NCBI RefSeq assembly: GCF_023055435.1 | Contig: NW_025964372.1 | Coordinates: 49,414,001-49,478,000, forward strand | DNA from: Haliotis rufescens | Taxonomy: Eukaryota | Reading direction: 5' to 3' | DNA: 64,000 bases | Shown here: piece by piece, positions 9,926 through 55,223 of the stretch | How the letters are laid out: the number at the start of each line of letters is the position of its first letter | How positions within the stretch are numbered: the stretch's first letter is position 1 | The notes under the pieces: model-generated | Databases searched by the model: none | Seen by the model: the letters and a program-made list of their open reading frames with translations, nothing else | Told to the model about the DNA's origin: nothing | Position numbers and translations under genes: made by a program

Positions 9926-10039
9926 TGTGGAACTTGGAACAAAAATCACGGACATTATAACCTTGAGTCGATGGCTTAAACTGTATCTGAAAACTTCGCG
10001 TGAGCGTAATTCGATTTTGAGCATTGGTAGGCAGACACT

Positions 10040-10327
10040 TACGGAAACCTTTTAGGGCCATTCGTTTGTTCTTTTTGTCTTGAAATTTCAAGATACTAAA
10101 TTGAGATTTTACCTTTAAGTTTCAAGATACTAAGTAGAAATTTCAGGTCATTATCCTGAAATTTCAAGATATTATCTTGAAATTTCAACTTAGTATCCTG
10201 AATTTTCAACTTATTATCTTGAAATTTCATGATATTACCCTTGAAATTTCAACTTAGTATCTTGAATTTTCAACTTATTATCTTATAAAAGTTAAAAAAC
10301 CACAAATGACCCTAAAAGGCTTCCGTA
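10040..10327. mobile_element. MITE with internal CTTGAAATTTCAAG palindromic repeats
   Basis: TIRs TACGGAAACCTTTTAGGGCCATT / AATGACCCTAAAAGGCTTCCGTA. Confidence 0.8.
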
Positions 10328-11039: not shown

Positions 11040-11647
11040 CTTTTAAGACAGATCGCGACACACATGATTGTGTGTCATAGTATTGTCAGTAGGTTTGAAG
11101 GTAATAATGGACAGATCCCTGCCCCACACACTGCGGTCTTGACCCATTGAATATTTCACTCTACTCGGGCGTGGGGCAACGGTATTTATTAAGCCCCCTG
11201 GTGATTATAAAAGCTTATTCTTGTAAGTTGACAAGGCAACCTTATCTTCAAGTATTCGATGAAAGAATTTAGAAAATCGCCATTAGAATCTGGAGTATGG
11301 GTGACTTTTGTTTTAATTTGACGGGATCCCCACTCTCTTCTGTAATCTACACAACCTACTGTGAAGAAGTGGCTTTGCAGAGATCCATGTTAACTCCATG
11401 TGATAGTGCGGGACACCATTGTCTTGTTACAGGTCAAGATTGCGCCAACATGACAATACCAATGAAAAGCGCACCACTTGCTTGATAACGATACCACGCT
11501 TGCTTTTGCTTAATCAGATTGGTTCGAGATTGCAGATTAACATAAAGATACCCAAAGTCCCGCTTGCGTTCTCACTAACCTCATCACGTGACAGTTGAAA
11601 TGAAATTCAAATTGACCAACTCATAAAGTTGACATAACATTTACATT

Positions 11648-14600: not shown

Positions 14601-16990
14601 ACACATCCCTCTATCCACCACACACATCCCTCTATCCACCACATACATCCCTCTATCCACCACATACATCCCTCTATCCACCACACACATCCCTCTATCC
14701 ACCACACACATCCCTCTATCCACCACACACATCCCTCCATCCACCACACACATCCCTTCATCCACCACACACATCCCTCTATCCACCACACACATCCCTC
14801 CATCCACCACACTCATCCCTCCGTCCACCACACACATCCCTCTATCCACCACACACATCCCTTTGTCCACCACACACATTCCTCTATCCACCACACACAT
14901 CCTCTATCCACCACACACATCCCTCCGTCCACCACACTCATCCCTCTATCCACCACACACATCCCTCTATCCACCACACACATCCCTCCATCCACCACAC
15001 TCATCCCTCCGTCCACCACACACTATCCTCCGTCCACCACACATATCCCTCTATCCACCACACACATCCCTCTATCCACCACACACATCCCTTCATCCAC
15101 CACACACACCCCTCCATCCACCACACTCATCCCTCTATCCACCACACACATCCCTCTATCCACCACACACATCCCTTCATCCACCACACACATCCCTCCA
15201 TCCACCACACTCATCCCTCTATCCACCACACACATCCCTCTATCCACCACACACATACCTCTATCCACCACACACATCCCTCTATCCACCACACACATCC
15301 CTCTATCCACCACACACATCCCTCCGTCCACCACACACATCCCTCTATCCACCACACACATCCCTCTATCCACCACACACATCCCTCTATCCACCACACA
15401 CATCCCTCTATCCACCACACACATCCCTACGTCCACCACACACATCCCTCTATCCACCACACAGACACCCTATCCACCACACACATCCCTCCATCCACCA
15501 CACACATCTCTCCGTCCACCACACACATCCCTCCATCCACCACACACATCCATCTATCCACCACACACATCCCTCCGTCCACCACACACATCCCTGCATC
15601 CACCACACACATCCCTCTATCCACCACACACATCCCTCTATCCACCACACACATCCCTCTATCCACCACACACATCCCTACGTCCACCACACACATCCCT
15701 CTATTCACCACACAGACACCCTATCCACCACACACATCCCTCCATCCACCACACACATCTCTCCGTCCACCACACACATCCCTCCATCCACCACACACAT
15801 CCATCTATCCACCACACACATCCCTCTATCCACCACACACATCCCTCTATCCACCACACACATTCCTCCATCCACCACACACATCCCTCCATCCACCACA
15901 CACATCCCTCTATCCACCACACACATCCCTCTATCCACCACACACATCCCTCCATCCACCACACACATCCCTCTATCCACTACACACTATCCTCCGTCCA
16001 CCACACACATCCCTCTATCCACCACACACATTCCTCTATCCACCACACACATCCTCTATCCACCACACACATCCCTCCGTCCACCACACACATCCCTCTA
16101 TCCACCACACACATCCCTCTATCCACCACACACATCCCTCTGTCCACCACATACATCCCTCTATCCACCACACACATCCCTCCATCCACCACACACATCC
16201 CTCTATCCACCACACACTATCCTCTATCCACCACACACATCCTTCTCTCAACCACACACATTCCTCTATCCACCACACACATCCTCTATCCACCACACAC
16301 ATCCCTCCGTCCACCACACACATCCCTCTATCCACCACACACATACCTCTATCCACCACACACATCCCTCTATCCACCACACACATCCCTCTATCCACCA
16401 CACACATCCCTCTGTCCACCACATACATCCCTCTATCCACCACACACATACCTCCATCCACCACACACATCCCTCTATCCACCACCCACTATCCTCTATC
16501 CACCACACACATCCCTCTCTCCACCACACACATTCCTCTATCCACCACACACATCCCTCTATCCACCACACACATCCCTCTGTCCACCACACACATCCCT
16601 CTATCCACCACACACATCCCTCTATCCACCACACACATCCCTCTATCCACCACACACATCCCTCTATCCACCACACACATACCTCCATCCACCACACACA
16701 TCCGTCTATCCACCACACACATCCCTCTATCCACCACACACATCCCTTCATCCACCACACACATCCCTCTATCCACTACACACTATCCTCCGTCCACCAC
16801 ACATATCCCTCCATCCACCACACACATCCCACCATCCACCACACACACCCCTCCATCCACCACACACATCCCTTCGTCCACGACACACCCCCCTCCATCC
16901 ACCACACACATCCCTTCGCCCACCACACACATCCCTCCATCACCTCACACACATCCCTTCGTCCTCCACACACATCCTTCCATCCACCCC
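11648..16990. repeat. 5.3-kb 21-bp minisatellite (CCACCACACACATCCCTC[C/T]AT) with a 962-bp higher-order duplication
   Basis: Tandem array; variant blocks recur exactly 962 nt apart (e.g. 11831 and 12793). Confidence 0.97.
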
Positions 16991-17639
16991 AAAAGAAAAC
17001 AGCCTTGAGATTTCCCATCACCTCAAGGTGATAAGTCGTTGCATAACCAAAGCACAGTTCAGACTGTTCTGATGTAATAAGAGGAGTTTACTTGAAATGG
17101 CATAGAAAAATTATTACTATGACAATTTATTACAGTTGTCATGGAACATACACAAAGAATGTCATAACATCTACTTACCATTCCCTAAAGATGTCCCACA
17201 TTACACTTCACTATTAAACACGTTACCTCTGGCATATTAAACACAAAGTCGTTGCACATGAACAGTAAGAGCTTACCTTAGAACAAAAGCTTGAAAAACG
17301 GCGAGCGCGAAAGGGTGTGTGATCGATGTCACCTGTTATTCCAGTTGAAACAACTTCCGCGTTCGCTATCTGTATACGTATGTGATCACGTGATGATAAC
17401 TGTCCTTTTTTTTATCTCCTGATAGGGCGGTAGGGTACACGTAGTGTTTTAGTTAAGTTTGTTCTGCTCACCGAGTGTCCGGGTTCAATCCTCAAAATGG
17501 GTACAATAAGTATCTGTGACTTCAAGGAAAAGGGTCGGTTAGCCTCTGTGACTTATGGAGAAGGATAAAGTCAGTTCTGATAAAATTGTACTCATGAACA
17601 GTGTCTGGTAGGTACATCGACGAAATGACTGGACTTATT

Positions 17640-26844: not shown

Positions 26845-28485
26845 TCATTTCCGTTTTGTCAAAGTAACTTCGTCTTTGGCATCAAGGAAAACCACAAACC
26901 GATGACGACCTCCACCCGACTGTATGACGTATTCATGACCCTGGAGGCCATAGAACGACACCCTCGCATCCTTCCACAAGGCAGGCTTGTGATGCTCCAG
27001 GTTAGAGATGCAGGCTTGGATCTGTCGCCGTAGATACGTCCCCTCCTCGTCTGTCTCTGTACCTTCGTGGCCGACAGTCTTGATGATCAGCTTCCCCAGC
27101 GTCCTCTTGTTCACGTCCTCAACTTCCAGCTGAAACAAACCCGTGAAGATCCGGGGTAGAATAGGTCTTCAGCAACCCATGTTGCCGTGAAAGGCGACTA
27201 TGTTTGTCCTCTACTTCCAGCTGAAGAGTGGTAACATGAAGGAGAGACTGGGCCTGACATTCCTGGCATAACCTTCCCACCAAGCAGTCACACACAGATG
27301 CAGAGGAGGCCTTACTTAAAGATCGGTAAAACACTTTGGATTCTCTACGGTATATTTTACGTTATTCTTTAAAACGAAAATGTCTATTTTTGAACGTACC
27401 AAATACTTTCTTCTTGAGACAATAGAACGATACCCTTTGAACAATACCAAAGCCCTATTTTGTAAAATAATATTCGGAATAGAACACGATCAAGCTGTAC
27501 AACCTACCAAAACCGAGGGTTCGTGAGCGGACAGCTTTTCACCATGTCCTGTCTGAAAGGGAAATAGTTCTAGGATATGGAAGACAGCAATGTTCAACGT
27601 AACTTGTGTACAACGTGGCCATTCTGGCAATTTCCAATAACAAGCCTTACCTCAATTGCAGCAATGTACTGGTGTTTCATCGTCACGTCTGTCGTCAGGG
27701 AATGGAAATACAGTTATTAAACTACGGTTATAACGAACTGAAAGGGACCACTAATTTGAATTCGTTATTACCGTAGTTCGTTATATCATATGTACGACAG
27801 TTATACAGGAAATGGACAGGACCAAGAAATAGTTCGTTATATCCGTCAGTTCGTTATAAGCGCATTCGTTACAAATGCAGTTTACTGTAACCTATTTTCA
27901 TTAACAAATAATCAAACTGGAAATTTAACAGCAGTTAATTCCATACTTTCTTCTCTATTTTAAACCCGTCACGCCGAAAACCCGGGTTCGATTCCCGACA
28001 TGGGTACAATGTGTGAAGCCCATTTCTGGTGTCCCCCGCTGTGATATTGCTGGAATATATAAGGCGGCGTACCCTACCCCTGTAGATGGTATACCTTATT
28101 GTTGAGACGAACCTCCATGCGTCACGTGTCAACACGCGGAAATCAATACCTCTAACTGATGGACGGATCTCGTAGACGTTAAACACTGCATGTGATGCCA
28201 GTCGAAATATAATAATATATATGTTGATATTATTTTAGCGTTTATCGTAATGTGTAGCTCTGTTATTTTTGTGATCTGTCAAAACCGAATTTTCGCAAAT
28301 TTTTTTTAACCATATACAAAATATACAGACTAAATACATTAGCCTGAAACGTTCAGTATTGAATCTAGACAGCATATAGTTCATTAATGTTTCGTTAAAG
28401 GCTACATGTAGTTCATACAGTTTTAGACACGTGCGCGCTTGTGGAATATTTGATTATATAAACGCTCACGTACCGTGTTGCCCAT
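26845..28485 (-). CDS. Gene A1: uncharacterised 113-aa protein, putative N-myristoylated; exons 28485-28474, 27552-27508, 27129-26845
   Basis: ATGGGCAACACG|GTACGT; TTTCAG|45 nt (TGHGEKLSAHEPSVL)|GTAGGT; TTTCAG|LEVEDVNKRTLGKLIIKTVGHEG...KRK*. All introns are phase 0 and the exon sizes are identical in three paralogues. Confidence 0.8.
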
Positions 28486-28704
28486 GTTGATGCCGCTAGA
28501 ACGTATTGACTGATGGCTTCCCTCCCCTGCGTCAGTTGTGGGAGGACGGGTGGGTTTACCCAGATCCCGGGTGGGGAACTCCAGTCACGTGATCACCCAT
28601 TGTCCACAAAAACACTGCGCAGTTCCACAGACGGGAGCGGGAGTGTTCTGGGCAGTATTTTCAATTCTGACGTCATTTAAGAAGTGTTACCTCCACAAAC
28701 CAGC
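28486..28704. promoter_or_regulatory. Putative bidirectional promoter A1/B1
   Basis: 219 nt between divergent ATGs; GGGGAACTCC (kB consensus, 28573-28582), GTCACGTGAT (E-box, 28584-28593), TGACGTCA (CRE, 28668-28675); conserved blocks shared with 39388-39654. Confidence 0.6.
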
Positions 28705-31700
28705 ATGTTCAGAGTAAGTGGCCTTTGATGCATGTATTGATTACAATGTAGAACATTTCTTATTTATGCGTGATTCCAATGTGCTTAGGGTATTTCAGAC
28801 AGCTCTCCTCCAGTTCGATATCAGTCAGGGATGACTTCTCTGTATGTAAATATAAGGAACTACAAGTATAATGATAGTGAAGTCGGGATATAATGATAGT
28901 GAAGTCGGGATATAATGATAGGATGGTCGGGGTAATATGACACTGTGAAGTCGGGGTATAATGACAGTGAAGTTCAGGTATAATGATAGTGAAGTCTGAT
29001 ATTATGACAGTTAACTCTGGGTATTGTGGCAGTGAAATCTGGGTATAATGATAGTGAAGTCTGATATTATGACAGTTAACTCTGGGTATTGTGACAGTGA
29101 AGTCCTGGAATAATGATAGTGAAGTCGGGTATTATGACAGTTAACTCTGGGTATTATGACAGTGAAGTCCAGGTATAATGATAGTGAAGTCGGGTATTAT
29201 GACAGTTAACTCTGGGTATTGTGACAGTGAAGTCCAGGTATAATGATAGTGAAGTCTGATATTATGACAGTTAACTCTTGGTATTATGACAGTGAAGTCC
29301 AGGTATAATGATAGTGAAGTCGGGTATTATGACAGTTAACTCTGGATATTGTGACAGTGAAGTCTGGGTATTATGACAGTTAACTCTGGGTATTGTGACA
29401 GTGAAGTCCAGGTATAATGACAGTGAAGTCGGGTATTATGACAGTTAACTCTGGGTATTATGACAGTGAACCCTGGGTATAATGATAGTGAAGTCGGGTA
29501 TTATGACAGTTAACTCTGGGTATTATGACAGTGAAGTCCAGGTATAATGATAGTGAAGTCGGGTATTATGACAGTTAACTCTGGGTATTGTGACAGTGAA
29601 GTCCAGGTATAATGATAGTGAAGTCGGGTATTATGATAGTTAACTCTGGGTATTATGACAGTGAAGTCCAGGTATAATGACAGTGAAGTCGGGTATTATG
29701 ACAGTTAACTCTGGGTATTGTGACAGTGAAGTCTGGGTATTATGACAGTTATCTCTGGGTATTGTGACAGTGAAGTCCAGGTATAATGACAGTGAAGTCG
29801 GGTATTATGACAGTTAACTCTGGGTATTGTGACAGTGAACCCTGGGTATAATGATAGTGAAGTCGGATATTATGACAGTTAACTCTGGGTATTGTGACAG
29901 TGAAGTCCAGGTATAATGATTGTGAAGTCGGGTATTGTTACAGTTAACTCTGCGTATTATGACAGTGAAGTTGGGGTACAATGACTGCCAAGTCCTTGTA
30001 TAAACACAATCAAGTAGGAATATGGCGACCGTAAGATCTGGGTATATTGACAGTGAACTCTGGGAATGAAGAAAGAGAAACTCCGTGAAAGATGACAGTG
30101 AAGTTAGAGTATGATGACAGTCGTGACCCGGTATTACTACAATGAACTCGACCCGTGAGGATCCTGGGTAGAATAGGTCTTCAGCTACCCATGCTTGCCG
30201 TAAAAGGCGACTATGCTTGTCGTAAAAGGCGACTAACGGGATCGGGTGGTCATAACGCGAACAGGTTGAGGTACGTGTCATCGTATTCCAATTGCGTGGA
30301 TCGATTCTCAGACTCGATTATTTACAGACCGCGGTCAACTAACAAACAAACAAGGAACTCCGTCTCAAGTTTCAGTTTCAAACACAAACTTTCACACTTA
30401 CGACAATGTGGATATATATAACCTGCATCTGAACTGATGAGGACATTGTTTCGTAGATAAATGTTCTGTTTTAAATGTAGAGCTGTTCTCCGCGACAAAC
30501 ACGAACACGAATTCTTTTCTCTTTATCCGTACATTTTACCATCTTCTGTCAGTGTTATACTTGATATTCAGCAAGGTTCTCTGTGTTCAGAATGGGTAAG
30601 ACACGATGACGTCAGTTACAGTATTTAAAACTAAATTCTCCATTCTGCGAACTTATGCACTTAAGATTTAAACGGTGAAAATATGAGATAATTTGACAGT
30701 AAAATTTACTGCAAGTGGACGTGTGCGTTTGCGTGTGGCAGCCGTTGGTTATGAATTATGATTAATCTTTTCTTTTCAGGGTTCAACAAAGTCATTCCCG
30801 TTGTATTTGAGTATAAAGAATACACTAAAACAAATATACACCGTGGCTGTATGAGTGAGTGAGTTGGGTTTTAACGCCACTTTGAACAGCTTGTCAGCTC
30901 AATGTGGGAGGAAAGGCTGAAGTGATGCAGGTCTCAGACGTTTACCACTTCGGCGAAACCCACGAGCACGGGTATGGTGCTGACAAACCTAGAAACATAA
31001 TTGGGGCGAACCGGGATTCGAACCCACAATCATAGGTTTCGGAGGGACGCAACTCTGCACAGCGAATCGCGGCGCCTTAGACGACTGGGCCACCCCCGGC
31101 TACATGAAAACTACAGTTGTAATGAATGAGTGAGTGAGTTGGGTTGCACGCCGCTTTGAACAGTTTTCCAGTTATATCACGATGTGTCAGTTTAGTGTGG
31201 GAGGAAAGCCCGAAGTGATGCAGGTCTGAGATGTTTACCACATAGGTGGTACCCACGAGCACGTGTATGGTGCTGACAAACCTAGAAACATAATCGGGGC
31301 GAACCGGGATTCGAGCCCAAGATCACAGGTTTCTGGCGTGCCCAAGGGAGGCAACTCTGCACAGCGGATTGCGGCACCTTAGATGACTGTGCCCCTGTGC
31401 CCCTGTAATATATGATCACTTAGGTACAATAGCAAATAGACTACAGTTAATTCTGAACTTAATTATGATTTACAACCATTCTTAATTCAGTCATGTCAAA
31501 AGGTCATGTCTTTGGATTATGATTGCATAACACTTGATCCTACACTGGACCCTCATTCATAAAGGATTAGTAGCTTACGGTAACTGATATACTTAGTTAC
31601 TTACGTGAGGAGAATGATACCACTCTGCAAGAAACATCGCGCTGTGAATAGATCGGTTTTATCATGCACATCTATGTTAAACACCTCCTATGTTTCTGAC

Positions 31701-32073: not shown

Positions 32074-32857
32074 CTGTCAAGGTACCCAAAACACAGATGA
32101 TAAGCCTTATCTACTTATTGCGGATTTGAATAGTAGTAAACACATTCCAAGAGCCCAATTCTTTTCCTTGCAGAAGGATGACGACGATATGGTGTCTGGG
32201 GTAGGTACAAGTTCATTTTATAATTAATTAATCTCATTACAAACATACCAGCATGCGCTCATTGTTAACGTAAAAACAAAGGAGTGACTATCTGTATGTA
32301 AATCAATAGGACACCTGTTACACTAAATGGCAATGTGTAAACACCTTGCGTCATAGCCAAACTTGTTATTAATAATTAATTACTTTTGAATTGCATTCAA
32401 CGCATCTGGAGAAAGAACTGCTGATTCGTTCTTATTTAATCTTTCCTAAAGTGACATCCAGTGTGTATTGCAGATCGTGAACTGTGGCCCTTACATTGAC
32501 TTTCCCGACATCTCCGATTTCATCCAAGAGAAGCAGCACCGTCTGCTGGGCGTGGACCGGAAGGTGCTCCAGTGCTGCTACTCTGTGCTAGGGGGCGAGC
32601 CTGACTGGGTGTGGAGGAATGCCAGCATGGAGGTCTACGGGAGATTCCTCACTGTCAAGTTCTACGCCAGAAGTCAGTGCAACAAATATGTTGTGTCCAT
32701 CAACAACGAGGAAGTGACCTCACAGTGTGTCCACAGAGGGCTGCGTCTCAAGCTCAGAGATGGCTTCCGGTCGGTGTTCAGCTGGATTGCGGACACGGCT
32801 CAAACTGTTCTGGGAGCAGTGGCTGGAGGTGGCATGGGGATGCTGACCTTTCATTAA
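28705..32857 (+). CDS. Gene B1: uncharacterised 139-148 aa protein; exons 28705-28713, (30780-30806, donor mutated), 32174-32200, 32474-32857
   Basis: ATGTTCAGA|GTAAGT; TTTCAG|GSTKSFPLY|TTGAGT; TTGCAG|KDDDDMVSG|GTAGGT; TTGCAG|IVNCGPYIDF...MLTFH*. The terminal exon is GC3-rich and coding-like and aligns with the A proteins. Confidence 0.7.
28866..29980. repeat. 21-bp-based minisatellite (GGGTATTATGACAGTGAAGTC variants, about 63-bp higher-order unit) in B1 intron 1
   Basis: Direct tandem array. Confidence 0.92.
30150..30352 (+). mobile_element. Family-2 headless SINE-like element
   Basis: Starts GACCCGTGAGGATCC; AAC-rich tail; internally deleted. Confidence 0.8.
31744..31911 (+). mobile_element. 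SINE family 1, near-consensus (others: 26093-26228, 27965-28070, 33101-33263, 33620-33785, 40660-40762, 40800-40905, 43073-43205, 46237-46392)
   Basis: tRNA-like head and (CACT)n tail. Confidence 0.9.
32020..32071. repeat. (TG)n microsatellite
   Basis: Perfect dinucleotide run; a (CA)n run is also present at about 54249-54306. Confidence 0.95.
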
Positions 32858-35620: not shown

Positions 35621-38600
35621 CTATATCCGTTTTGTCAAAGTAACTTCGTCTTTGGCATCAAGGAAAACCACAAACCGATGACGACCTCCACCCGACTGTA
35701 TGACGTATTCATGACCCTGGAGGCCATAGAACGACACCCTCGCATCCTTCCACAAGGCAGGCTTGTGATGCTCCAGGTTAGAGATGCAGGCTTGGATCTG
35801 TCGTCGTAGATACGTCCCCTCCTCGTCTGTCTCTGTACCTTCGTGGCCGACAGTCTTGATGATCAGCTTCCCCAGCGTCCTCTTGTTCACGTCCTCAACT
35901 TCCAGCTGAAACAGACCCGTGAAGATCCGGGTTAGAATACGTCTTCAGCAACCCATGCTTGTCGTAAAAGGCTACTATGTTTGTCGTAAGAGGTGACTTA
36001 CGGGATCGGGTGGTCAGGCTCGCTGACTTCATGTCATCGTATTCCATTTGCGTAAATCGATGCTTATGATCTCAATCACTGGATTTATGTACTCAAACTT
36101 TTAGATCTTAAACAATCTCAAGAATGGAATAAGTTTAGGGTGTGAAACGTACCAAAACCGAGGGTTTGTGAGCCGACTTCATGTCGCCGTGTCCTGTCTG
36201 AAAATAGAGAGAGGACATTGAGGAGACCAAGTAAACAGTTAATTAGTAAAATCAGTTATATCCCGGCGTGCCATCTTGATGTGGGAGAAAGTGATTCAGC
36301 TCTTGGACATTTACAACTTTGGTGAAACCCACGAGCACGGGCATGGTGCTGACAAACATAGACACATAATCAGGGCCAACTGGGATTCGAACCTACGACC
36401 ATAGGTTTCTGGCACACCTAAGGGGCGCAACTCGAATTGCTCTGCGAATTGCTCAAAGGCCTCAGGACGTTAGCCATGCGTACCCCCAATTATACGTCTG
36501 AAAGAAGATAGGCACTACTAGTTTATTTTCACATGTTATGAACTGTCACATTGGGAAGCATTTACAGTTGACGTTGATCTGATTTAATATATGTCTGAGA
36601 TAATACGTAAATTGAAAACTTGGTACAGGGTCGCTGTATTTTCTATATAGACATGTACTAGTTCACATCACATGTTAGAAAACATCAGTGGAAGACCCTG
36701 AAAGGGTACCAAAATAACTACTGCCACGAAACATAAAATCTCGTTGTTAGAATCGATTTCGGTTTTCGTATTTCAACATGACTACAATATGTTGACATTA
36801 GGAAGAAAAACAAACGTGTTTCTTCAGAAAATGAATAATACGATTCTAAAATAACATAGTTTATACAGAAATATATGGTTAGCGGTGCTTATTTCAGAGA
36901 AAGATATCTACTTTTACCTCACGTGTTCATCATACAGATGTTTAGGCGAGCCCTTCGGAATTTAAGTATGCCAAAGAAAATACTTTTGACCTATATTCAA
37001 ACTTGGTGATTTCATCTCACCAAAAGCCAGATAATAACTGGCTGTAATTTAAAAAAATCCCTGGCGCCTTTTCATTGATATTGGTAGCATCATTTCTGAA
37101 TACCCAGGATTGTTTTATGAATCATGATGCGCAGGGGAATTACCTCACGAGAAAGTATCAAAATGCTCTGTTTAATTCACGACTGCATTTTCTGCGTATT
37201 TAGTATTTATTTTATCATTTAACGGTGCTAAACCAACCAAACCCCGAACGTCAATTATGCAATGCTCCACCTGAACCATGGTATACCTCAGATAAATCAG
37301 TTAAGAATTACGCTCACTGCAGTATTTGCTCAATATTTAGCAGTTTCAAATCTCAAGTTAACATGGCCCTGAACTGGAGACGAAGTGAGTTTGATTATTA
37401 TATGTGTTCCGCAACAATTTGTCAAGTTTACTTAAGCTTATTCTGCCTTCCTTGCATTGTCAAACACATAAAATTTTATCCATGATTGTTTAAATACCTG
37501 ACGTTATTTTCGTTTTTAAACCTAGCAGTAGTTTCTGTCCTGACAATGTTGTAAATGCGAGTGATTTCGAATATTTCATTTTAAATTTTAGCATTATGCG
37601 AACAGTGAATAAAAATTCATCGTGTGTACAATTAGACCGATTTAGACAAATGTAGTGATATGGTTTGATGTGCCGAATCCAATTATTAATCATATTCCCA
37701 AACAAACCAATTTTCTAAAATTATATGAAATTCATTAAGATCGTACTTCATTGGAATCACACTGAATGAAACAGTTTTGATGCAGGATAAAAATCTTAAA
37801 TACTTAGGTTTAGGGATAGTGGTGTGGGTGGGTGTGGTGTGGGAATAATGGCCCCGCAAAATTTATATCCGACAAAATCATATTTTCGATTTCTCAATAA
37901 TTTATATAGTAACTGAACTGAACCAGTCCTATTTTCATTATATATGCTGATGGGAGTTGTCATTAAATACACGTCTTCCATAAGGTGGGGTTTTATCGTC
38001 GCCGATAGTCCATCTAGTGCAGTGCGTAATATATGATGATTTTTATTTATATAAACCCGTCAAATGATTGTCAGCAACTGGTAAATAAACTTCATTCGAT
38101 AAACGTTCTGAAAAAGCTTAGAGAAACACGAGAAAAAACACGTGACAAAACAGGACAATAGACTAGAAAATCCAACATTAAAGGGCCACCCCATACACCC
38201 CCCAAAAAACAACAACAACAACAACAACAACAACAAACAAACCCCCAAACCCAAACAAACAATAAACAAACAAAACAAAAACAACAAAAAACAAACTCAA
38301 TTCTGAAAATGTCAGGAATGAGTTATTTTATCCGACATAGAACTTTTCAACTGGTTTTCAACACGTATTTAGTACTTTCACAATAGTTATCCGAGTTTCA
38401 TAAACCTCGCGATTAACCTCGTTCTTACATCTCTGTTTCGTGTTTGATGTCAATTGGAAACTTCCCCGTTGACAAAATGAGGGGGGCTGTTCGTCTGCTT
38501 AGTAAATAGACAAAAAACGATACTCCATTGTCCAAGACAGAGAGTCATATGTCAAAGAAACAGTTCAAGTGACTACAAATTCATATTTATTGAAGAGATC

Positions 38601-39654: not shown

Positions 39655-40124
39655 ATGTTCGGAGTAAGTGGCCTTTTAGTTGTTATCTGTTTCAGTTTCT
39701 TTGTGTATTGATCTGTCATTTCAATGAGTACAAGCGAGTCATGTTCTGATCTCTTTCAGTATACATGTATGTTCTAAATACTTGATACAAAAAAAAAATT
39801 ATTTTGAATTCCTGGTATATTTCCTAGTTTACCTCTAAGAACCAGTGTATACAACAGTCATGTCACCAAGTACCTCTCAGTGTTCGGAGCATGAATCTCT
39901 TTTGCCCAACATGTTGCCTTTATTTCAATAATTATCTAGATAAGTGAGTGAGTGAGTTGGTTTAACGCCACTTGTAACAATATTCCAGTTATATCACGGC
40001 ATGTTGTGGGAGGGAAGTCGGACGCGATGCAGGCCTCAGACTTTTACCACGGGGGTAAAAGTTTTTTGATGCACTAATGTACTGAAATAATGACCCTCCC
40101 CTAATACATGTTATATTTGTGGAT

Positions 40125-42196: not shown

Positions 42197-45100
42197 AACT
42201 GTATACATTGGATACACTGAGCCCATGGTGATGCAGGGGAAGATTAGAGTGTGACTTGAGCTCAGTTGTCTCCTCAACGTCCAAATCCTATCCAGCTATG
42301 CGGAAGGTTACCTTCAAGAAGGAATGGGTATCAACCGAGACGAAGTCACTGTCAGCCAGTATATCGATTATCGAATTACAGACAATGCCTGGTGTAAACG
42401 TGTCGTGAAGTTTCTATTCCACTGTGGTGAACAGGCAATATGCTACAGTAGCGCCAAAAAAACGTTTGAATAAATAAAAGGTTATCGACGTGAATACCCC
42501 ATATATGTCCATATATCACAGGTAGCAAGGAATTAGCCGACTGTTGTCTGACATGAGCGCTGCCAATGTGGTTAACATGAAAAATACACAACCTTGTCAA
42601 TTAATTGATTCAATTTTGTCTTTTCAGAGGTCCTACAAATCCTTCCCGTTGTATGTAAGTATAAGGATCGATCTGATTGGATCATTATAATCTTACATAT
42701 TAATATGAATTTAATAAACAGAAACTACAATTTATGATTCAATGCGGTTTAAAATATCATTTTGAATATTACAAATATCCGCACTATACAGATAGTCTTA
42801 CAGCTGATTCATATATTTCATTTGATGAAGAATATATATACATGATTATCAATATTTAGGACCTTTCTTAGCACAACCCACAGATCAAGAAAACAAGCAG
42901 ATTTGCATATCATGCACATGCATGTAAACCGAGAACCCCTAGATGTGTGCTGTAAAGATACTGAGATAAACACATACTGTCGGGTTGTTCCTGTTGTTAC
43001 GCAGTGGATTAAAGGAAAAGTGGATTGGAGAATAACTGTTAAACTTTGCAGTTGCATTACATGCACGTTTAGAGTGAGTGAGAATGGTTTTACGCCGCTT
43101 TCAGCAATATTCCAGCAATATCACACTTGTACCCATGTCGGGAATCGAAACCGGATCTCCGGCGTGTTGAGCGAACGCTTTAACCACTAGGCTACCCGAC
43201 CGACCCACATGTTTAGAGAGGAGACTGGCATACACATGTGCACATGTAACGGTGTACTCATGCTCCAGTTGCAGTCTCATTATATTGGTTAACTGTGATC
43301 TATAAAGATTTCGACAAAGGGCGCATGTTAATTAATTTCTTCAGCCTGAAAACAAACAGACAAAAAGAACAAGGGAGCTCATCGGATGTCGTCATTTGGA
43401 AATATCCCAGACGGTTATAGTTTAATAATAAAAACAAGTATCCATGCTGTGAAAGCATGTTCGAATTTCGGATTGCGTCGATAATACGATTACTACTCCC
43501 TTGTTGTCATCCACGTTTTCTGGTATAACCCTACACTTGTGTATTTGTCATCATTCACTTGATGCTCAGTTAATGAATTTATTACTGGTACAATTAGTGG
43601 TAGCACCACTTAGATTACCTGACAAAGGTTCCCATTTGGCATTTATTGTGTCTGGGGTAATTATCCAATCTAAATGCAGGTTTGAAGTGAGGTGAAATGG
43701 GTTTTATGTAATATACACGTGGCAGCCCAGCAAGAGGTAAATGATCAGTTGATTTGCTTTTTTTGTAAATCAGCGGATCGTTCCTAGTCATCAAAGGATG
43801 ATTAATCACTGTTATCTTGCACAGTGGATATGTCAAAAGTGAGTGTTTACATGTCTAGGTTTACTAAAACAAAGGGAATACACTCATATCATGGCGTGAA
43901 GTGCCAATGTAAAAACAACATACTTTGTTCAAAGGGTTAACTGATAATACGTTGATTGGTTGCTCATTGTTATCTATCACTCAATGGATTTTTTTATGAA
44001 CCGTGGACGCTTTGAAAATAATTGTCACGTGGGCTTTCTCAGCCGACCCTTGAGTCTTGACACCTATGTGAAACACCTGAAACAATCTAAGTCATCAGTT
44101 GAGAAACGAACACGGGTTATAATATCCCGAAACGATATATATCTTTTAAAATATTTGATTGTTACAGAGACACGTGACATCGATCGCGAATAAGTTTCTT
44201 TGTACAGCTGCAGACGAGTGGGATACTGTTCCTTTGTGTGGATATTCACGGATACATTACTCGAATAAGGAAGCTGCCTAAAATTTATATACATAAATTT
44301 GGTAGGTTGTAATTATGGTATTTGAATTTTGTTTTGCTTCATTTGCTGTAGCATTGAACTGATTCGTTCTTGTTCCTCTACGTCTTGGTTAGGGAAATTC
44401 TTCAATGCGCGATAGACGTTGTTTTCACAGGTCTTTTCCTTTGTCAGCGTGTACATATTACCGCCAATTTGTAAAATGTGATTCTCTCAGGCAATTTAAC
44501 AAATGTGTAAGTATTTCAGTCATTTTGACAGAAAAATCGGCCCAGATTGACTAAAATTGATAAAGACAATCAAAAGGGCCTAAAAACATCACAGCAAAGG
44601 ATTAGAAGCCCAACAACATAGAAATGTACTTTTCAATGTAACATATTCAGTCTCTTGGTGATGACATTAAACATCAAAATGTTTGGAATTCGTTATCATA
44701 ATAATACAGATGGAAATGTTTTTCAGTCACTTTGTAAAATAACTGAATATTTAGGCGTTTAATAAATTTGAAAATGTTACACATTTTGACAGTAAACAAA
44801 TATACACACTATAAAAAAAGCAATGCTCAAGTGAAATATTTACTTTGTGTTGCAAGTCAAAACAGTGTAGACGAAAATCCCAAAATTACCAAGCAAGTGA
44901 CTTCTCAAAACTTCGTCACCATTACCGATGCTACCCACAAAGGTACCTACATTTCCTTATTATCTCGAAAACTGTATTTTATTTTGTTGATCAATGTGAC
45001 CATACGCCCTTATTACTACCCATAAAAGTGACTAATGCGCTTACGAATGGCGCAGCAGAGGTCGCGAACTAGTCTTGATTTCTGCTATACATCCAGGTAT

Positions 45101-46392: not shown

Positions 46393-49300
46393 TTATTTCA
46401 TTTTTGAAAAGGTTATTTCGTCTCGAGCATCAAGGTGGACCATGAATCTGTAGCGTCCGCGGCCAGAGGATACCACATATTCATGACCCTGTAAGCCAAT
46501 GAACGTCACTGTAGCATCCCGCCACACTGCAGGCTTGTAATGTTCCAGGTAAGAGATGCAGACTTGGATCTGTCGCCGTAGATACGTCCCCTTCTCGTCT
46601 GTCTCTGTACCTTCGTGGCCGACTGTCTTGATGATCAGCTTTCCCAGCGTCCTCTTGTTGACTTCCTGCACTTGAAGCTGAAACAGGAAATACGCATCGA
46701 TAAATGACTTTCGTTAACTTCAACCTGCATAAGCGACATCGACATGAGTGTTTGTTTGTTTTGTTTGGTTGTTGTAAACAATCGAGTCTGTACCAGACAA
46801 TCCAGTGATTGATATCATGAGCATCAGTTATTTGGGATACGATGACCTGCATCAACCAGGTCAGCCTGTCTGACCACCCGATCCCGTCAGTCGCCTCTTA
46901 GGACAAGCATAGTCGTCTTTTACGGCAAGCGTGGGTTGCTGAAGACCTATTCTACTCCGGAATCTTCACGGGTCTGACCAAGTTCAGTTTATGTTGTGGT
47001 GCTTCCATACAATGATTATGTTCTTTAAGGTCGTGTCAGTGGGAAGAACTACGAACTACAAAAGAAAAGTTAGGAATACAAAATAAAAGATGAAACTAAC
47101 TGCATACGGCGAGCTGCGAAGTAATTTCTCCTTGCTCATTAAATGAAGTATAAACTTGACACATAATGCTTGAAATCCATCTGTGCGTGTAAATTTAATA
47201 TTCTCCTGAGGCGTTACTGCTTCGTTTTCATTATAAATCATAAAATTTTATATAAACCTGAGAAAGGTGAATAATTGCGTGGATCGATGCTCATGATATC
47301 AATCACTAGAGACTCGATTATTTACAGAGTGTCGACATAGCTGGAATATTGCTGAGTGCGGCGTTAAACAACAAACCAACCAACCAACTAAACTTGGTCT
47401 AAGTGACATATCAAATGATGTCACTGTCACTTGGTCGAAAACCAGTCTAGTCACGGCCTGGTGATCACACCGCTCCTCCGCTTAATTTGCCCGGCTTCCG
47501 TCACCATTCGGAAAAGTCCGGCAGTCATCGTCATCCAGTGTTTTTGATTTCCTTGTCAGAGAACAAGTGACCTTAAGTAAGGATAAGATATATGGATGAA
47601 CAATTTCTTTATTACAAATATGAGCGACGTTTCGGTGTAGGTTATAACTCCGTTATCAACCAAGTGATGTTCAGAGTTTAGTTGACAAGTATTTATACGG
47701 GATAGGAGGCAGTGTTTCTTCATTTGAGTAGGTTGAAGATGCAGGTACACTGGCGTGGGGAAGCCTGTTATGTACACAGAAGGATAGAACATATTTCCCG
47801 GTGTAGCCTGTTGTATGGTTTGTTTGTTGTTTAACGCCGCACTCAGCAATTTTCCAGCTATATGACGGCGGTCTGTAAATAATCGAGTCTGGACCAGACA
47901 ATCCAGTGATTGACAGCATGAACATCGATCCACGCAATTGGGATCGACGACATGTATCAACCAAGTCAGCGTGCCTGACCACCTTTTACGACAAGCATAG
48001 TCACCTTTTACGACAAGGATGGGTTGCTGAAGACCTATTCTATCTCGGAATCTTCACTGGTCGCCTGTGATATGAATCAAATGGGGAAGCCAGTAATGTA
48101 AACAGTAAAAAGGATTGTGGCTGATTGGGGTCTTCGATGAGTTGGTGGTACACCGGTGGTATGTCGTAGCCTTGGTCACGATTGATTGGTGGTTGGAGTT
48201 GGAGTCTTTTGATGTTGATGGCTTCTTGTAGTTTTCTGATTTTGAAGTCTTTGAGGTTGGTATGGCCTCAACTGCGATGGAGAGATGTCTGATTCAGCGA
48301 CGAATCAAGATTTCTCCTCCGTCGAGAGGTTGGAAGACCACGTCGGGGAGAACGTTATGCCGGAAACTGCGTACAGGAAGTGGACATGTTTGGTGGGGGT
48401 AGCGTTATTATGTGGGCGACTATCTCTCATCTTGGCAGGACAGGTCTGGTCCATATCCAGGTCAATTTTACGGCTCAACGATACAACAACGAAATTCTCC
48501 TACCACACGTCCTCCCAATTGCAGCAGACGGCAACGGTGTATTCAAGCAGGACAACGCTCTACCGCATACGCAACGGATCACAAGAGCCTGTCCACATTT
48601 TTCTCCCCTGGTCCTCCAGATCCCTGGATTTGAATCCCGTGAGCACCTGTGGGAAGAATTGGATAGACGGCTACGCCGACGTCGACCACAACGGCAGACG
48701 TTGCAGCAGTTGGCTTTTGCGTTGCAGGCCGAGTGGGCGACCATTCCCCAGGATGTGATTCGCATACTCGTCTCTGTCATGGACAGGAGATGTCAGGACG
48801 CTATCGATTCCAACGGGGGACATATGCGTTATTGATGGTAGCTGACCTTCATCATGGACATTTCCTATGTACCGATAACTGAGATGACTACAATCATCAA
48901 GTGTTCTCTCTTCAATATCTTTGCTGAATACCTTGTACTGTTCCTCGTTTAAATATATTTTCCTACCTTTACGCTACGTGATTTTTTAAGAGTACATTAT
49001 GACAGGACAGAAGTACTCACCAAAACAGTTGGAGCATGCGCTGACGATTTCTTTTGATATTCAACCTGAAATAAGGGTGAAAGTAAACTGCATTGTTTAT
49101 CTATGACATGATTTGTTGTTGAGGTGGATGCAGAAATACATCGCCCGGGGTTCAAATATACTCTTTAGGGAGTAGGGAGTCATGAACTAGAAATGTTAAT
49201 ACCAAGTATTAGAACAAAGATAAGTGTTGCAACAAACATCCTATGCATGAACGTTAATGTCACACGTTTCACTGTGTTTTTGTGTTCTTATATTTGGGTC

Positions 49301-49852
49301 GTTGCCAATGAGAAGGCCACAAACAAATGTAAACATATCTCCTCCGCGTTTGCCATATTGGGAAAGGGGTCTTACGAAAACTATTTTACACTGCGCTGTT
49401 TCAATGAAATGTGTTCTATGTTTTGCATGACCAGATACTTGAAATGGTGTACGCGACATTACAGTCATGTTTATCAGAATGGCGACCAGTCACCAATTTA
49501 TTGCAAATGTTCATTTGCCCCACCTACCATCACAACTGTAATGTCCGGACGAACCTATAGCGTTCTCATTCAGAGGGCATGAGGTAAACCACAATATATT
49601 ATGCCTTTCACAACTTGAATGAATGAACCATCCACGAAATAATCTTGTCGAAATGAGAATAAATATACCTACTTAAGGAACATATTAAAGAACACCGCAA
49701 ACCCCTTTCACGGTCAAAAGAAAGTCGACTGTACGATTCTGACTGTATTATAAACGTGTGTTTATGAAACACTTTCAAATGGGGATGATACTAGGTGTTC
49801 GCGTCATGAAACAACAGACAACATTACAGAATCTACTTACCGTGTTGCCCAT
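46393..49852 (-). CDS. Gene A3: 113-aa divergent paralogue; exons 49852-49841, 49065-49021, 46677-46393
   Basis: ATGGGCAACACG|GTAAGT; TTTCAG|VEYQKKSSAHAPTVL|GTGAGT; TTTCAG|LQVQEVNKRTLGKLIIKTVGHEG...KMK*. Many substitutions relative to A1/A2 are synonymous or conservative and the frame is preserved. Confidence 0.82.
47560..48260 (-). mobile_element. Penelope-like fragment with degenerate hammerhead motif, interrupted by a family-2 element (47818-48062)
   Basis: Minus strand TTGATAA-CGGAGT-TATAACCT-ACACC-GAAAC-GTC at about 47659-47626. Confidence 0.4.
48270..48835 (+). mobile_element. Tc1 transposase remnant in A3 intron 2
   Basis: FGGGSVIMWATIS, FKQDNALPH, LPWSSRSLDLNP / EHLWEEL (frameshifted DDE domain). 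Confidence 0.9.
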
Positions 49853-50024
49853 GTTCACGTCGGATCAGGTAGATGTGGTGAGCGGCCGAGTCACTGTGCT
49901 CAACAGACATCAATAAACCTTTCGTGGAAAAATATTTATAGAATTAGTGCTTCCCGGAATCGATCAATAAGCCATACTCGAGAGTACCCTGCAAACGTCA
50001 TCCGAACAAGCTCAACGCGTGAAG
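49853..50024. promoter_or_regulatory. Putative bidirectional promoter A3/B3
   Basis: 172 nt between divergent ATGs; TTCCCGGAA (GAS/STAT consensus, 49951-49959) and TTCGTGGAA (49921-49929). Confidence 0.5.
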
Positions 50025-53000
50025 ATGGGAAACGTAAGTAATCATTTCTGTCTTAATTAGAAATGTTCCAGGATTCTTTGTGAAATATTGCTGGGTAATG
50101 AAACCCAGTTAGCCATGACCTCGTTTGTCTGGAAACTCCAGGTTCCGGAAAATTGCTGTTATGAAACTTCACAAAAATACAAGGACTAACTCCGTATCCA
50201 TGGTTCGTTTCGCCCAGAAAGTTCAAACAACAGTTAGGGTCATGAAAACCTCTTCGAAAAAGGGAAACGGTATAATCAGTACAAATATTATTTTATGATG
50301 AAACTAGAATTATTGTGGCATCCATAAATTCTCTTCCTTATTTACTGAGGGGGCGCGATTCGCTGTGCAGAGTTGCGTCCCTTGACCACGCCAGAAACCT
50401 ATGATTGTGGGTTCGTATCCCGGTTCGCCCAAATCATGTTTCTAGGTTTGTCAATACCATACTCGTGCTCGTGGGTTTCGCCGAAGTGGTAAATGTCCGA
50501 GACCTGCATCACTTCGGGCTTTCCTCCCACTTTGAGCTGACTGTATAACTGTAATACGGTTAAAAGCGGTGTTAAACCCAACTCACTCACTCCTTATGCA
50601 CTGCCCAGGTTTATATAACACGGTTGCAATGCTCCAGGCTTGACTTGATTTTTCGTGTTCTTTTTCTTATCTGTTGTTGTGACATACAGCGGTATGTGGC
50701 GCTCAAGGGCTTTTTACTTCTAGTCCCTGTGTAATGTTATCAACACTTGTGGCAAGCCGATATCTAAATGCAAAAGATCCCTCCGCTCCTCCTAAATGAA
50801 TATCCTCTGTAATCTTAAGGTGACAACCCACACGCCTCTAACACACGGCGCAACGACTTGACAAACGTACCGGGCGGAGGGGTGGGCTGGGGTGGGGTGG
50901 GGTGGGATGGGATGGGATGGGTCGGGATGGGGTGGGGTGGGGTGGGGTGAGGGGAGAGCAGTGGCACACAGTTCACCCAACCTTTGTCAAAGAATGACAA
51001 CATATGGTATGCCATGTGTAGCGCGGTGCGACAGATTGTGAAGCTGTTCCTGGACCTAAGGGTGACCAGGCCATGTCACACAATGAGACTTGCAGAATCT
51101 ATTCACCAACGTGAACAGTTTTAGAAGCACTTTATCACTATGCATGTGGCGTCAGAATACACAACTGCTTGTCGGGGCTTTAATTTTTCACACTGGAAGG
51201 TAACAGAGTCGACTTTCTAAACAAGCTGCCCAGGAAAATATGTTGACAGGTGTGGTCATATCTGATTTTTTTACGTATTTTGAAGAATAGTAGGCGTGAT
51301 CGGTAAAATCTGTGCTAGAGTTTACCTTTTAGTCTCCAAACGCCTCTCTGTGTCATCCCAGGGACCAGTCTGTGAGAGGACTCTAGTCCTGCGTCGACGT
51401 GCACTATGCTTATGATATTCAGTTGATTAGAAAGACCAGAAACGCAATATATCTCAACACAGCAAGACCCGTGAAGATCCGGGGTAGAATAGGTCTTCAG
51501 CAACCCATACTTGCCGTAAAAGGCGACTATGTTTGTCGTTAGAGGCGACTAACGGGTTCCGGTGGTCAGGCTCGCTGACTTGGTTGATGCATGTCATCGT
51601 AACTCTATTACGTTGATCGATGCTCATGATGTCAATACCTGGATTGTCTGGTCCAGACTCGATTATTTACAGACCGCCGTCATATAGCTGGAATATTGCT
51701 GAGTGCGGCGTTAAACAACAAACAAACAAACAAAAATATGCAGGCAGGGGAGATAATCCATATCGCAGACAAAATTGGATGTTGCACTTTGACATTTCCC
51801 TTGGCGCTCACTGCATTAGCGATTTGTTTGCAATTTAAAAAAAAATCTAAATAGTTGAAGTCTGCAGCCACTGGTCCTGTAAGAACAAAATGATTTCATG
51901 TCGCGTAAGGGGTTGAAGTAGCGTAAAATTATTGTCCCCCTAACAGGGTATGTCAGTCCCACATCATTCAATGTATTGTTATGCATACCAGAATTTTAAA
52001 ACGTAGTATTTTTGTCATTTTAATCTAAGGCTTAACTGGTAAACTATCGCCAGTGACTGAAGGGATGATATAAATTAAATCCAGCCAGGGCCCATGCAGG
52101 AAGAAAAGGCACTGTAAGTCCCCATTGTCCCAGGTATGGTGATCTCCCTTTAGTTACACACGATCTCTAGCCCATTTTTATATTGTGTTGTAAATTCTTT
52201 CTGCTTTTATATGTTCCTCAACTAGCTTTAATACACTCTGTGATATTCTAGTTATTGTACTGTCCTTTGATGACAGGTTTTTATAAAGTATATATACTTA
52301 TATGTTATTAATGTATTAATTCTCGTCACTATATTGCTGAAATATTGCCGATGTGACGTTAAATTCTCACTCACTCACTCATGTCGCGTAAGAACGAATA
52401 ATTGGTATAGTTGACAGCCACATCCCGTTTTGTCGATCAGGTTATCTGACACCTGGAATATGTCGCACTGAAAGCTTAACACTGTGTCCAGGAGGCTAAC
52501 CAACACAGTCAGGCTATAGACCGAAACAGGCTATAACGTCACGGTTGAGTGATTTCTATATTTGAACAATATAGACTTTTCATTTCTTAGTAGCTAACAT
52601 TTGTTGAAGTGTTGCCAACATCTGGCCATAGATATGCCTGCTCGCTCTTGATTGGACGTAGGCATGACAACCCATGTAAACCTTCCGGGTACATTCTGCG
52701 TATTATTGTCGGTCAGGTCAAGTTCAAGTGTATCCTCATAAATCACAACATGTGATACAGAGAGGATATAAATACATCTGTACACATATACAGACATAGA
52801 TTTGTTCAGTGAGAATTCGTAGATTGTAATAATAAAGCTTGGAGTTGATTGCTTAACTCTAAGTATACGCTTGAAATATTTCAAATGGATTCTTTCAATC
52901 ATAACTGACATTACAAGGCCCCGCAGTTCAGAGGCGTATAATATTGGTTGAATGGTGTGGTATGGTTATCGAATTATGTTAATAGACTAAACGTATGCAT

Positions 53001-54308: not shown

Positions 54309-55223
54309 ATCAATCTCTTACCTTATGCACAGAGGGAAACGCTAGATCGGTACTTGTTCAAGTCATAATTAAAAATAATAGGTCAAAATATACAAACGAC
54401 AGTAGGAGTATTCGAAAGTAACAGAGGATTACAGAAATACAATAAGGTAAACAACCAAGAAAGACGACATGGGTGTATAGTTAAAAAATAAATGTTTGGG
54501 ATGGCGTGGTTCGAATCAATCTTCCAATGACAATTTGAGCGAGTCTTGTTCATTTTGTAGTCCCTGGCCTTGTTTGACTAACGTAGCAGGTTCCCTTTGA
54601 CGTCGGCGTACACTTCTCCCGATGATATCCCAGCGTGCGCTATGGTGTTTGTTTGTTTGTTGTTTAACGCCGCACTCAGCAATATTCCAGCTATATGACG
54701 GCGGTCTGTAAATCATCGGGTTTGGACCAGACATTCCAGTGATTAACATCATGAGCATCGATCAACGCAATTTGGATCGATGACATGCATCAACCAAGTC
54801 AGCGAGCCTGACCCCCCGATCCCGTTAGTCGCCTCTAACGACAAGCAGAGTCGCCTCTTACGGCAAGCATGCGTTGCTGAAGACCTATTCTATCCCGGAT
54901 TGCATTCACGCAAAGTGGAGACGTTACGTGTTACTGTAAATAATGAAAATCAACAATACCAACGGCTCGGCCCGATTTTGTTGACCTTTCAGCGTATGGT
55001 CATAAGTAAGCATGACCTCGCTGTAACCCACACGGAGGAAGTGCATAGTGTATGTGCAATGATTTGGGTGTGTTGGTGCGTCAGGTGGTTGTCCCCAAGC
55101 CGTTATATCTGTGGCAGAGAATGACCAGACTAGAATATTAGAAATTATTTAATCTTTGTGAATTTGTAATTCCCTCTATTTCCTTTTCAGGGTGCCACAA
55201 CACAACTTCCGGGACACCTGGAT
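50025..55223 (+). CDS. Gene B3 (partial): exons 50025-50033 (MGN) and 55191-55223 (GATTQLPGHLD); downstream exons not found in window
   Basis: ATGGGAAAC|GTAAGT lies 172 nt from the A3 ATG, the same geometry as B1/B2. A strong acceptor TTTCCTTTTCAG precedes a 33-nt phase-0 exon ending in GTGAGT, and GATTQLP resembles GSTKSFP. Confidence 0.55.
51466..51731 (+). mobile_element. Family-2 headless SINE-like element, full length (others: 27138-27208, 35914-36085, 45701-45900, 46750-46974, 54645-54900, 62800-63021)
   Basis: GACCCGTGAAGATCCGGGGTAGAATAGGTCTTC 5' end; ATATAGCTGGAATATTGCTGAGTGCGGCGTTAAAC(AAAC)n 3' end; no A/B boxes seen. Confidence 0.85.

What the first reader, a model, noticed from the sequence alone, without database searches (positions are those of the whole stretch)
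28474..28485. N-myristoylation signal isolated on a 9-12 nt first coding exon, and lost in B1/B2
All three A genes keep the 12-nt MGNT exon identical at nucleotide level while exon 2 diverges (MGNTTG, MGNTTG, MGNTVE). B3 starts MGNGAT, a good fit to the M-G-x-x-x-S/T NMT consensus. B1 (MFRGST) and B2 (MFGRSY) have lost Gly2. Established: NMT requires Gly2 and tolerates Asn3 well. Inference: these are membrane-anchored proteins and paralogues differ in lipid anchoring through a tiny exon. A3 (Glu6) is the weakest candidate.
Basis: partly seen in the sequence, partly recalled or inferred. Interest (0 to 1): 0.7.

Follow-up and report, generated by a model that had tools for sequence, protein, structure and literature searches.

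The report
Paired abalone proteins, swappable lipid anchors
These are head-to-head pairs of small abalone genes from an unnamed animal protein family whose 'A' members likely attach to membranes through a fatty acid on their first glycine, while relatives in oysters and crinoids carry a tail-end lipid signal instead; the short first coding exon itself is ordinary.

Summary
Three A genes share an identical 12-nt coding end of exon 1 (MGNT); B1 and B2 start MF, B3 starts MGN. Contigs from three studies confirm A1's splicing and start codon. The exon is not tiny (at least 121 nt with UTR), the NMT site (residues 2-7) spans exons 1 and 2, and the 12-nt identity is near chance against exon 3 (about 0.13). 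Myristoylation of A is strongly supported by relatives: of 62 A-type homologues, 8 start MG and 30 end in a CaaX box, none both; 0 of 45 B-type have CaaX. A and B share one domain (HHalign 98.5%) with no Pfam family and no clear structural match. They sit head-to-head in abalone and adjacent in amphioxus, where B is fused to CARD, TIR or zinc-ribbon domains. B's Gly2 loss is an old point change in one lineage, not an exon swap; B2 and probably B3 look broken. Best reading: A is a likely lipid-tethered partner in an uncharacterised, possibly immune, membrane module. Lipidation and function are untested.

The parts
28474..28594 (-). A1 exon 1: at least 109 nt of 5' UTR plus 12 coding nt (MGNT, 28485-28474); predicted N-myristoylation site Gly2-Asn3
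   Evidence: (contig covers 28594-28474, joined to exon 2)
27508..27552 (-). A1 exon 2 (15 codons; supplies residues 5-7 of the NMT site)
26845..27129 (-). A1 exon 3, coding part: the folded domain (A1 = 113 aa, RefSeq-type model P0011)
28486..28704 (.). 219-bp interval between the A1 and B1 start codons: both UTRs and a likely shared bidirectional promoter
   Evidence: promoter role inferred
28705..28713 (+). B1 exon 1, coding part (MFR; no Gly2)
   Evidence: (P0005)
30780..30806 (+). B1 exon-2 homologue with TT in place of the GT donor; skipped in model P0005
32174..32200 (+). B1 exon 3 (acidic, 9 codons)
32474..32857 (+). B1 terminal exon: same domain as A plus a C-terminal helix of about 30 residues
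39376..39387 (-). A2 exon 1, coding part (MGNT)
36153..36197 (-). A2 exon 2
35621..35905 (-). A2 exon 3 (281/285 identical to A1 exon 3)
39655..39663 (+). B2 exon 1, coding part (MFG; no Gly2); 267 bp from the A2 start
42628..42654 (+). B2 exon 2; no exon 3 or terminal exon found downstream, so B2 is probably truncated
49841..49852 (-). A3 exon 1, coding part (MGNT)
49021..49065 (-). A3 exon 2 (gives Glu6)
46393..46677 (-). A3 exon 3
50025..50033 (+). B3 exon 1, coding part (MGN); 172 bp from the A3 start
55191..55223 (+). B3 exon 2 (gives MGNGAT); no terminal exon in the window

Best explanation
A1-A3 are spliced, head-to-head partners of B genes and encode a 113-residue protein of an unnamed animal domain family that is likely N-myristoylated on Gly2 and so likely tethered to a cytoplasmic membrane, where it would act as the anchored partner of the B protein made from the same short promoter. 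Shown: gene structure and start of A1; A and B share one domain; MG or CaaX ends across A-type homologues; CARD, TIR, B-box and zinc-ribbon fusions of B-type homologues; Gly2 loss in one B lineage shared by two abalone species. Inferred: Met removal and NMT action, with Asn3 making up for the missing Ser/Thr6; weak, reversible binding helped by the basic C-terminal end of A; B reaching the membrane through its amphipathic C-terminal helix and/or A once Gly2 is lost; a role in innate-immune or cell-death signalling. The short coding part of exon 1 is ordinary gene structure, not a regulatory device.
For: Splice joints and 109-nt UTR with in-frame stop. Residues 1-12 of A are predicted unstructured, as an NMT substrate needs (pLDDT under 50). 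Of 10 A first exons found in the fetched stretches, 9 give Gly2-Asn3 (8 MGNT, 1 MGNQ) and 1 MWDQ. Of 62 A-type homologues: 8 MG, 30 with Cys at -4 (at most 5 at any other of the last 15 positions; 28 of 30 with aliphatic a2), none both; 7 of the 8 MG starts have Ser6 or Asn3. In a second search 68 of 93 new proteins end in Cxxx. MG-type: octocoral, two hemichordates, amphioxus, abalone; CaaX-type: bivalves and crinoids. A/B homology 98.5% probability. Amphioxus gene models 82398 (zinc-ribbon B), 82399 (MG-type A) and 82402 (CARD-B) are near-consecutive. dN/dS about 0.25 for A1-A3. PMC4736023 (passages) states that Asn3/Gln3 facilitates myristoylation without Ser/Thr6.
Against: No direct evidence of lipidation, localisation or function. 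A1-A3 lack Ser/Thr6 and Lys7 (Gly6-His7, Gly6-His7, Glu6-Tyr7); Lys7 is important for selectivity (PMC7048800, passages). 24 of 62 A-type homologues show neither signal (12 have short or incomplete N-termini by my motif test, 12 have full-looking ones), and one abalone A gene starts MWDQ. MG and CaaX cluster on the tree (2 changes each), so counts are not independent events. One oyster protein has both MG and CaaX (P0153, MGEF). Only 3 of 45 B-type homologues start MG. The C-terminal helix of B beat shuffles at p under 0.05 in only 5 of 19 proteins. The immune link rests on fusions in amphioxus and on family expansion, not on abalone data.
Confidence: 0.62

Rival explanations
1. A is myristoylated and membrane-bound, but works alone or outside immunity (for example in trafficking, development or the mantle); the A/B pairing only reflects an old inverted duplication kept by a shared promoter.
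For: A and B are homologous, so one inverted duplication explains the arrangement; the C13 pair has drifted to 4 kb apart; many B copies are broken while A copies stay intact; no abalone member carries an immune domain.
Against: Adjacency also holds in amphioxus gene models; B-type fusions found are CARD, TIR, B-box and zinc ribbon; tandem expansion with many broken copies is typical of immune gene families (own knowledge).
Confidence: 0.22
2. Gly2-Asn3 is kept for another reason (N-terminal acetylation, N-degron protection, or splice-site and Kozak constraint) and the A proteins of this window are not myristoylated.
For: No Ser/Thr6 or Lys7 in A1-A3; G after ATG is also the favoured Kozak +4 base (own knowledge); nucleotide identity of the 12-mer is near chance against exon 3 (0.13).
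Against: Distant MG homologues add Ser6, often Lys7, or Asn3 (7 of 8); the C557 paralogue reads MGNQIS; homologues without MG carry a second, unrelated lipid signal.
Confidence: 0.12
3. One reading: a tiny first exon isolates the signal and acts as a module by which paralogues or isoforms gain or lose the anchor.
For: All A and B first exons found code only 3-4 residues, phase 0, including the distant C13 and C557 pairs; one RefSeq isoform joins an A3-type start to an A1-type domain (P0002).
Against: Exon 1 is at least 121 nt; residues 4/5-7 are on exon 2; losses are codon changes in place (MF in B1/B2, MW in C13 A); in three B copies a deletion removed the start codon altogether. The P0002 isoform still starts MGNT.
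Confidence: 0.04

Closest known systems
N-myristoylated proteins with Gly2-Asn3 and no Ser/Thr6 (PKA catalytic subunit; sperm hexokinase HK1S with Gln3)
   Same: Gly2 plus Asn3/Gln3 without Ser/Thr6; in HK1S the signal also lies on its own first exons (PMC4736023, passages).
   Different: No sequence or fold relation; no Cys for palmitoylation near the A N-terminus; no evidence of alternative first exons here.
OAS1 p46 (CaaX prenylation) and OAS2 (N-myristoylation)
   Same: One protein family reaching membranes by either lipid signal (PMC13372824, passages).
   Different: OAS are nucleotidyltransferases; this domain is about 95 residues with no known family, the anchor differs between lineages, and the genes come as A/B pairs.
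ARF-family GTPases with lineage-specific loss or gain of N-myristoylation
   Same: Paralogues differ in Gly2; loss in some lineages (bioRxiv 10.1101/2020.10.31.363457, passages).
   Different: No GTPase domain; no homology.
CARD- and TIR-fused invertebrate immune proteins
   Same: B-type domain is fused C-terminal to CARD (P0021, P0088), TIR (P0043, P0125) or a zinc ribbon (P0026, P0141) in amphioxus.
   Different: Abalone A and B are stand-alone; the shared domain matches no Pfam family at its cut-off and no solved structure clearly (best Z 3.9).

Membership tests
N-myristoyltransferase substrates | Gly at position 2 of the true start | tested here: met
   A1-A3 and B3 have Gly2; in-frame stops upstream exclude extensions; A1 start lies in a spliced contig. 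Not met for B1 and B2.
N-myristoyltransferase substrates | Ser/Thr at position 6 (MGxxxS/T consensus) | tested here: not met
   Gly6, Gly6, Glu6 in A1-A3. Met in B3 (Thr6) and the C557 pair. Not a strict requirement (PMC4736023).
N-myristoyltransferase substrates | Asn/Gln at position 3 when Ser/Thr6 is missing | tested here: met
   Asn3 in all three A genes and in 9 of 10 A first exons found.
N-myristoyltransferase substrates | Lys at position 7 | tested here: not met
   His7, His7, Tyr7 in A1-A3, Thr7 in B3.
N-myristoyltransferase substrates | Unstructured N-terminus without signal peptide | tested here: met
   Residues 1-12 pLDDT under 50, no helix or strand; polar sequence; no signal-peptide predictor was run.
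N-myristoyltransferase substrates | Myristate covalently attached | not testable with these tools
   Needs labelling or mass spectrometry; no dedicated predictor on hand.
Microexons | Whole exon of a few tens of bases at most, bounded by two splice sites (definition recalled) | tested here: not met
   A1 exon 1 is a first exon of at least 121 nt.
CaaX-prenylated proteins | C-terminal Cys-aliphatic-aliphatic-X | tested here: not met
   Window proteins end KRK, KRI, KMK, TFH. Met in 30 of 62 and 68 of 93 homologues.
RelE/ParE-like small alpha/beta toxin fold (considered from the order of strands and helices; recalled) | Structural match to solved members | tested here: inconclusive
   No row at Z 5 or more for either model; Foldseek no E under 0.001.
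Any Pfam family | Score above the curated cut-off for the shared domain | tested here: not met
   Best: UPF0270, 15.9 bits against 25.6; 6 of 68 A members reach it weakly.

The most novel reading that the evidence does not exclude
A and B define an undescribed, possibly new-fold, two-part membrane module of invertebrate innate immunity, at least as old as cnidarians: a lipid-anchored A subunit (myristoyl in abalone, amphioxus, hemichordates, octocoral; prenyl in bivalves and crinoids) recruits a B subunit whose C-terminal amphipathic helix acts on the membrane, with CARD or TIR domains wiring B to upstream sensors, and tandem arrays of the domain in a hemichordate hinting at polymer formation.
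Probability: 0.25. Interest if true: 0.85.

Novelty: new variant of a known kind. Interest (0 to 1): 0.55.

Why it matters
The exon detail is ordinary, but it led to an unnamed domain family spread over cnidarians, molluscs, echinoderms, hemichordates and amphioxus, expanded in abalone and oysters, whose members appear to keep a lipid anchor while switching which end carries it. That switch is good indirect proof that membrane location is central to its function. With CARD and TIR fusions on the partner, it is a testable candidate for a missing membrane step in invertebrate immunity, relevant to farmed shellfish. It also flags an annotation trap: gene models that miss the 3-4-codon first exon lose the anchor signal.

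Tried and rejected
Complex prediction of A (13-113) with B1 (8-131): no answer, score 0.00, alignments not used, partner fold uncertain; neither for nor against binding. Fold searches: Foldseek PDB for both models and viral library for A gave no E under 0.001; VIA-align against 48,161 chains gave best Z 3.9 (A; rmsd 5.7, 82 aligned) and 3.4 (B), which shows neither a new fold nor a different one. PDB sequence searches: best E 0.65 and 0.16. ESM Atlas: best 0.88 for A, none for B. NCBIfam (A alignment) and PADLOC (B alignment): no family shared by more than 2 members. Sequencing-run search listed no holder on record as RNA; the 20-kb lay was swamped by repeats and showed no gene joints, so splicing of A2, A3 and B1-B3 rests on splice signals and RefSeq models; B1 exon 1 was covered only in run X1. 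Promoter motifs (kB-like and CRE in A1/B1, STAT-like in A3/B3) were found after the fact among 7 patterns in 7 intervals and are not shared by all pairs; not used as evidence. Literature: no main-text hit for 12 locus ids; topic searches (listings only) showed no paper on this family; supplements were not searched and expression tables there may list these genes. Earlier scan findings: none. Rejected: upstream start codon, microexon, exon-swap mechanism, MFRGST as B1's main product. P0061 and P0080 are probably false hits but were left among the 45 B-type rows.

Full report
Observation. The 12 nt at 28485-28474 (- strand) read MGNT and end at a GT donor; identical 12-mers stand at 39387 and 49852. 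Each A gene has a 45-nt exon 2 and a 285-nt terminal coding exon and gives 113 residues. Each faces a B gene on the + strand, with 219, 267 and 172 bp between start codons. B1 starts MFR, B2 MFG, B3 MGN. The closest named records are Haliotis proteins, all 'uncharacterized'; the B1 terminal exon is 100% identical to H. rufescens P0005, and P0011 and P0009 match A1 and A2 at both ends.

Transcript check. In 4 of 4 runs laid (3 studies; RNA status is the tool's guess) a contig joins 28474 to 27552 and 27508 to 27129 at GT-AG introns, and the X1 contig runs to 28594. Exon 1 of A1 is therefore at least 121 nt, with 109 nt of UTR that holds an in-frame stop 34 codons upstream; all six genes have such a stop 5-34 codons upstream. 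The start is right and the exon is not a microexon. NMT reads residues 2-7 (PMC7048800, passages), so exon 2 supplies part of the site. Exon-1 identity is 12/12, against 21-37 of 45 in exon 2 and 226-281 of 285 in exon 3; at 80% background the chance of nine identical non-ATG bases is 0.13. Conservation is real against the flanks but unremarkable against exon 3.

State of the B genes. B1's exon-2 homologue ends in TT and model P0005 skips it, so B1 most likely reads MFRKDD. B2 has exons 1 and 2 only; no terminal exon lies before the A3 gene. B3 has exons 1 and 2; the next B terminal exon, about 24 kb on and outside the window, lacks its first 15 codons behind a repeat, and the next intact one is about 39 kb on. 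An intact MG-type B lies at G000:C594:52064924. A tree of 24 B cores groups the two MF proteins (H. rufescens, H. rubra; 97/93) as sister to the canonical MG genes (95/94), with the MG-type C13 and C557 genes outside them (abalone group 93/95, its inner order open). Gly2 was thus most likely lost once, before these species split, by codon change, and the gene stayed intact (dN 0.32 against a near-saturated dS of 2.5).

Family in the genome. G000 holds 14 A and 11 B terminal-exon matches, several partial or broken, in two clusters on C594 and as single pairs on C13 and C557. In the stretches fetched (500 bases missing), 9 of 10 A first exons give Gly2-Asn3; the C13 A starts MWDQ with an amphipathic stretch while its B starts MGV. 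The C557 pair, 198 bp apart, both have Gly2 and Ser6. In every pair with both first exons present at least one partner has Gly2.

Family elsewhere. A profile of the 8 abalone proteins found 109 proteins at E up to 0.001, 107 new, which I split into 62 A-type and 45 B-type, two of the latter probably false. A and B profiles align over 65 columns at 98.5% probability. A-type: 8 start MG, 30 have Cys at -4, none both; no other of the last 15 positions has more than 5 Cys; 28 of the 30 have an aliphatic a2. Among 34 with a long enough N-terminus, MG occurs in 8 of 20 without CaaX and 0 of 14 with it. Seven of the 8 MG starts have Ser6 or Asn3, matching the rule that Asn3/Gln3 helps where Ser/Thr6 is absent (PMC4736023, passages, citing Utsumi 2001, which I did not see). 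A second search added 93 proteins, 68 ending in Cxxx and 1 starting MG (that one has both). Named MG-type members come from an octocoral, two hemichordates, amphioxus and abalone; named CaaX-type members from oysters, Tegillarca, Mya and two crinoids. Against this: 24 of 62 show neither signal, and both labels cluster on the tree (2 changes each), so the switch happened few times. B-type: 0 of 45 CaaX, 3 of 45 MG; fusions to CARD, TIR, B-box and zinc ribbons, and tandem arrays of up to 10 domains (P0018 is from Ptychodera). In B. floridae, models 82398 (zinc-ribbon B), 82399 (MG-type A) and 82402 (CARD-B) are near-consecutive; their orientation was not checked.

Structure. Both models are confident (mean pLDDT 82.8 and 81.4): strand, two helices, a short helix, four strands; A has an unstructured N-terminus, B a C-terminal helix at 102-130 of lower confidence. 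That tail is amphipathic in the canonical abalone B proteins (p 0.017 against shuffles), borderline in B1 (0.067), and significant in 5 of 19 tested. No Pfam family reaches its cut-off for the domain.

Mechanism. Shown: structure and start of A1, pairing, homology, terminal motifs, fusions, Gly2 loss. Inferred: A is myristoylated after Met removal and binds a cytoplasmic membrane; A and B are co-expressed from the short shared interval; B reaches the membrane by its own myristate (canonical), its tail, or A (B1 lineage); the module serves immune or death signalling. I put myristoylation of A at about 0.85, membrane location as central to the family at about 0.9, and the partner-plus-immune reading at about 0.3 in full; 0.62 is for the core statement of an anchored A working with B.

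Comparison and verdict. The closest parallel for one family using either lipid is OAS1/OAS2 (PMC13372824, passages); Gly2 loss among paralogues is known in ARF GTPases (bioRxiv 10.1101/2020.10.31.363457, passages). The lipid signals are of known kinds and the short first coding segment is ordinary (own knowledge). The domain family, its pairing and its anchor switch were not found in the searches run (main texts of an open-access library only). Interest 0.55: low for the exon as framed, higher for the family it exposed.

Noticed in passing
window 8070-10051 (-): BTB-BACK-PHR gene (BTBD1/2/3/6-like architecture), at least two exons.
   Followed up: no
window 11620-17030: 5.4-kb C/A-rich tandem repeat with extreme GC skew (about -0.95) and open frames in all three + frames.
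   Followed up: no
window 28860-30000: Minisatellite of about 1.1 kb inside B1 intron 1.
   Followed up: no
window 49921-49959: Two STAT-type palindromes (one TTCCCGGAA) between the A3 and B3 starts; the optimal one is absent from the intact canonical pair. Between A1 and B1: a kB-like 10-mer, an E-box shared with A2/B2, and a CRE.
   Followed up: partly
G000:C594:49504177, 51946471, 51987842: Three A3-type copies share a deletion that removes the B start codon and most of B exon 1 while leaving its donor.
   Followed up: partly
G000:C594:49.44-49.53 Mb and 51.93-52.07 Mb: Two clusters of the family about 2.4 Mb apart in opposite orientation with near-identical copies: recent segmental duplication or uncollapsed haplotype.
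   Followed up: no
P0002 (RefSeq isoform X1 of the A1 locus): Joins A3-type exons 1-2 to an A1-type terminal exon, which would need a roughly 22-kb intron across A2: read-through splicing or annotation artefact.
   Followed up: no
P0144-P0148, P0153, P0223, P0228: Oyster and crinoid CaaX-type homologues carry an N-terminal region of about 180-200 residues with no Pfam match, duplicated in P0146 and P0177.
   Followed up: partly
window 55590-61270: Satellite-like repeat arrays just downstream of B3 exon 2, where related genes have their terminal exon about 0.9 kb after exon 2.
   Followed up: partly
window 27139-27208 and 35914-36085: A dispersed repeat sits immediately upstream of the exon-3 acceptor in A1 and A2.
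   Followed up: no
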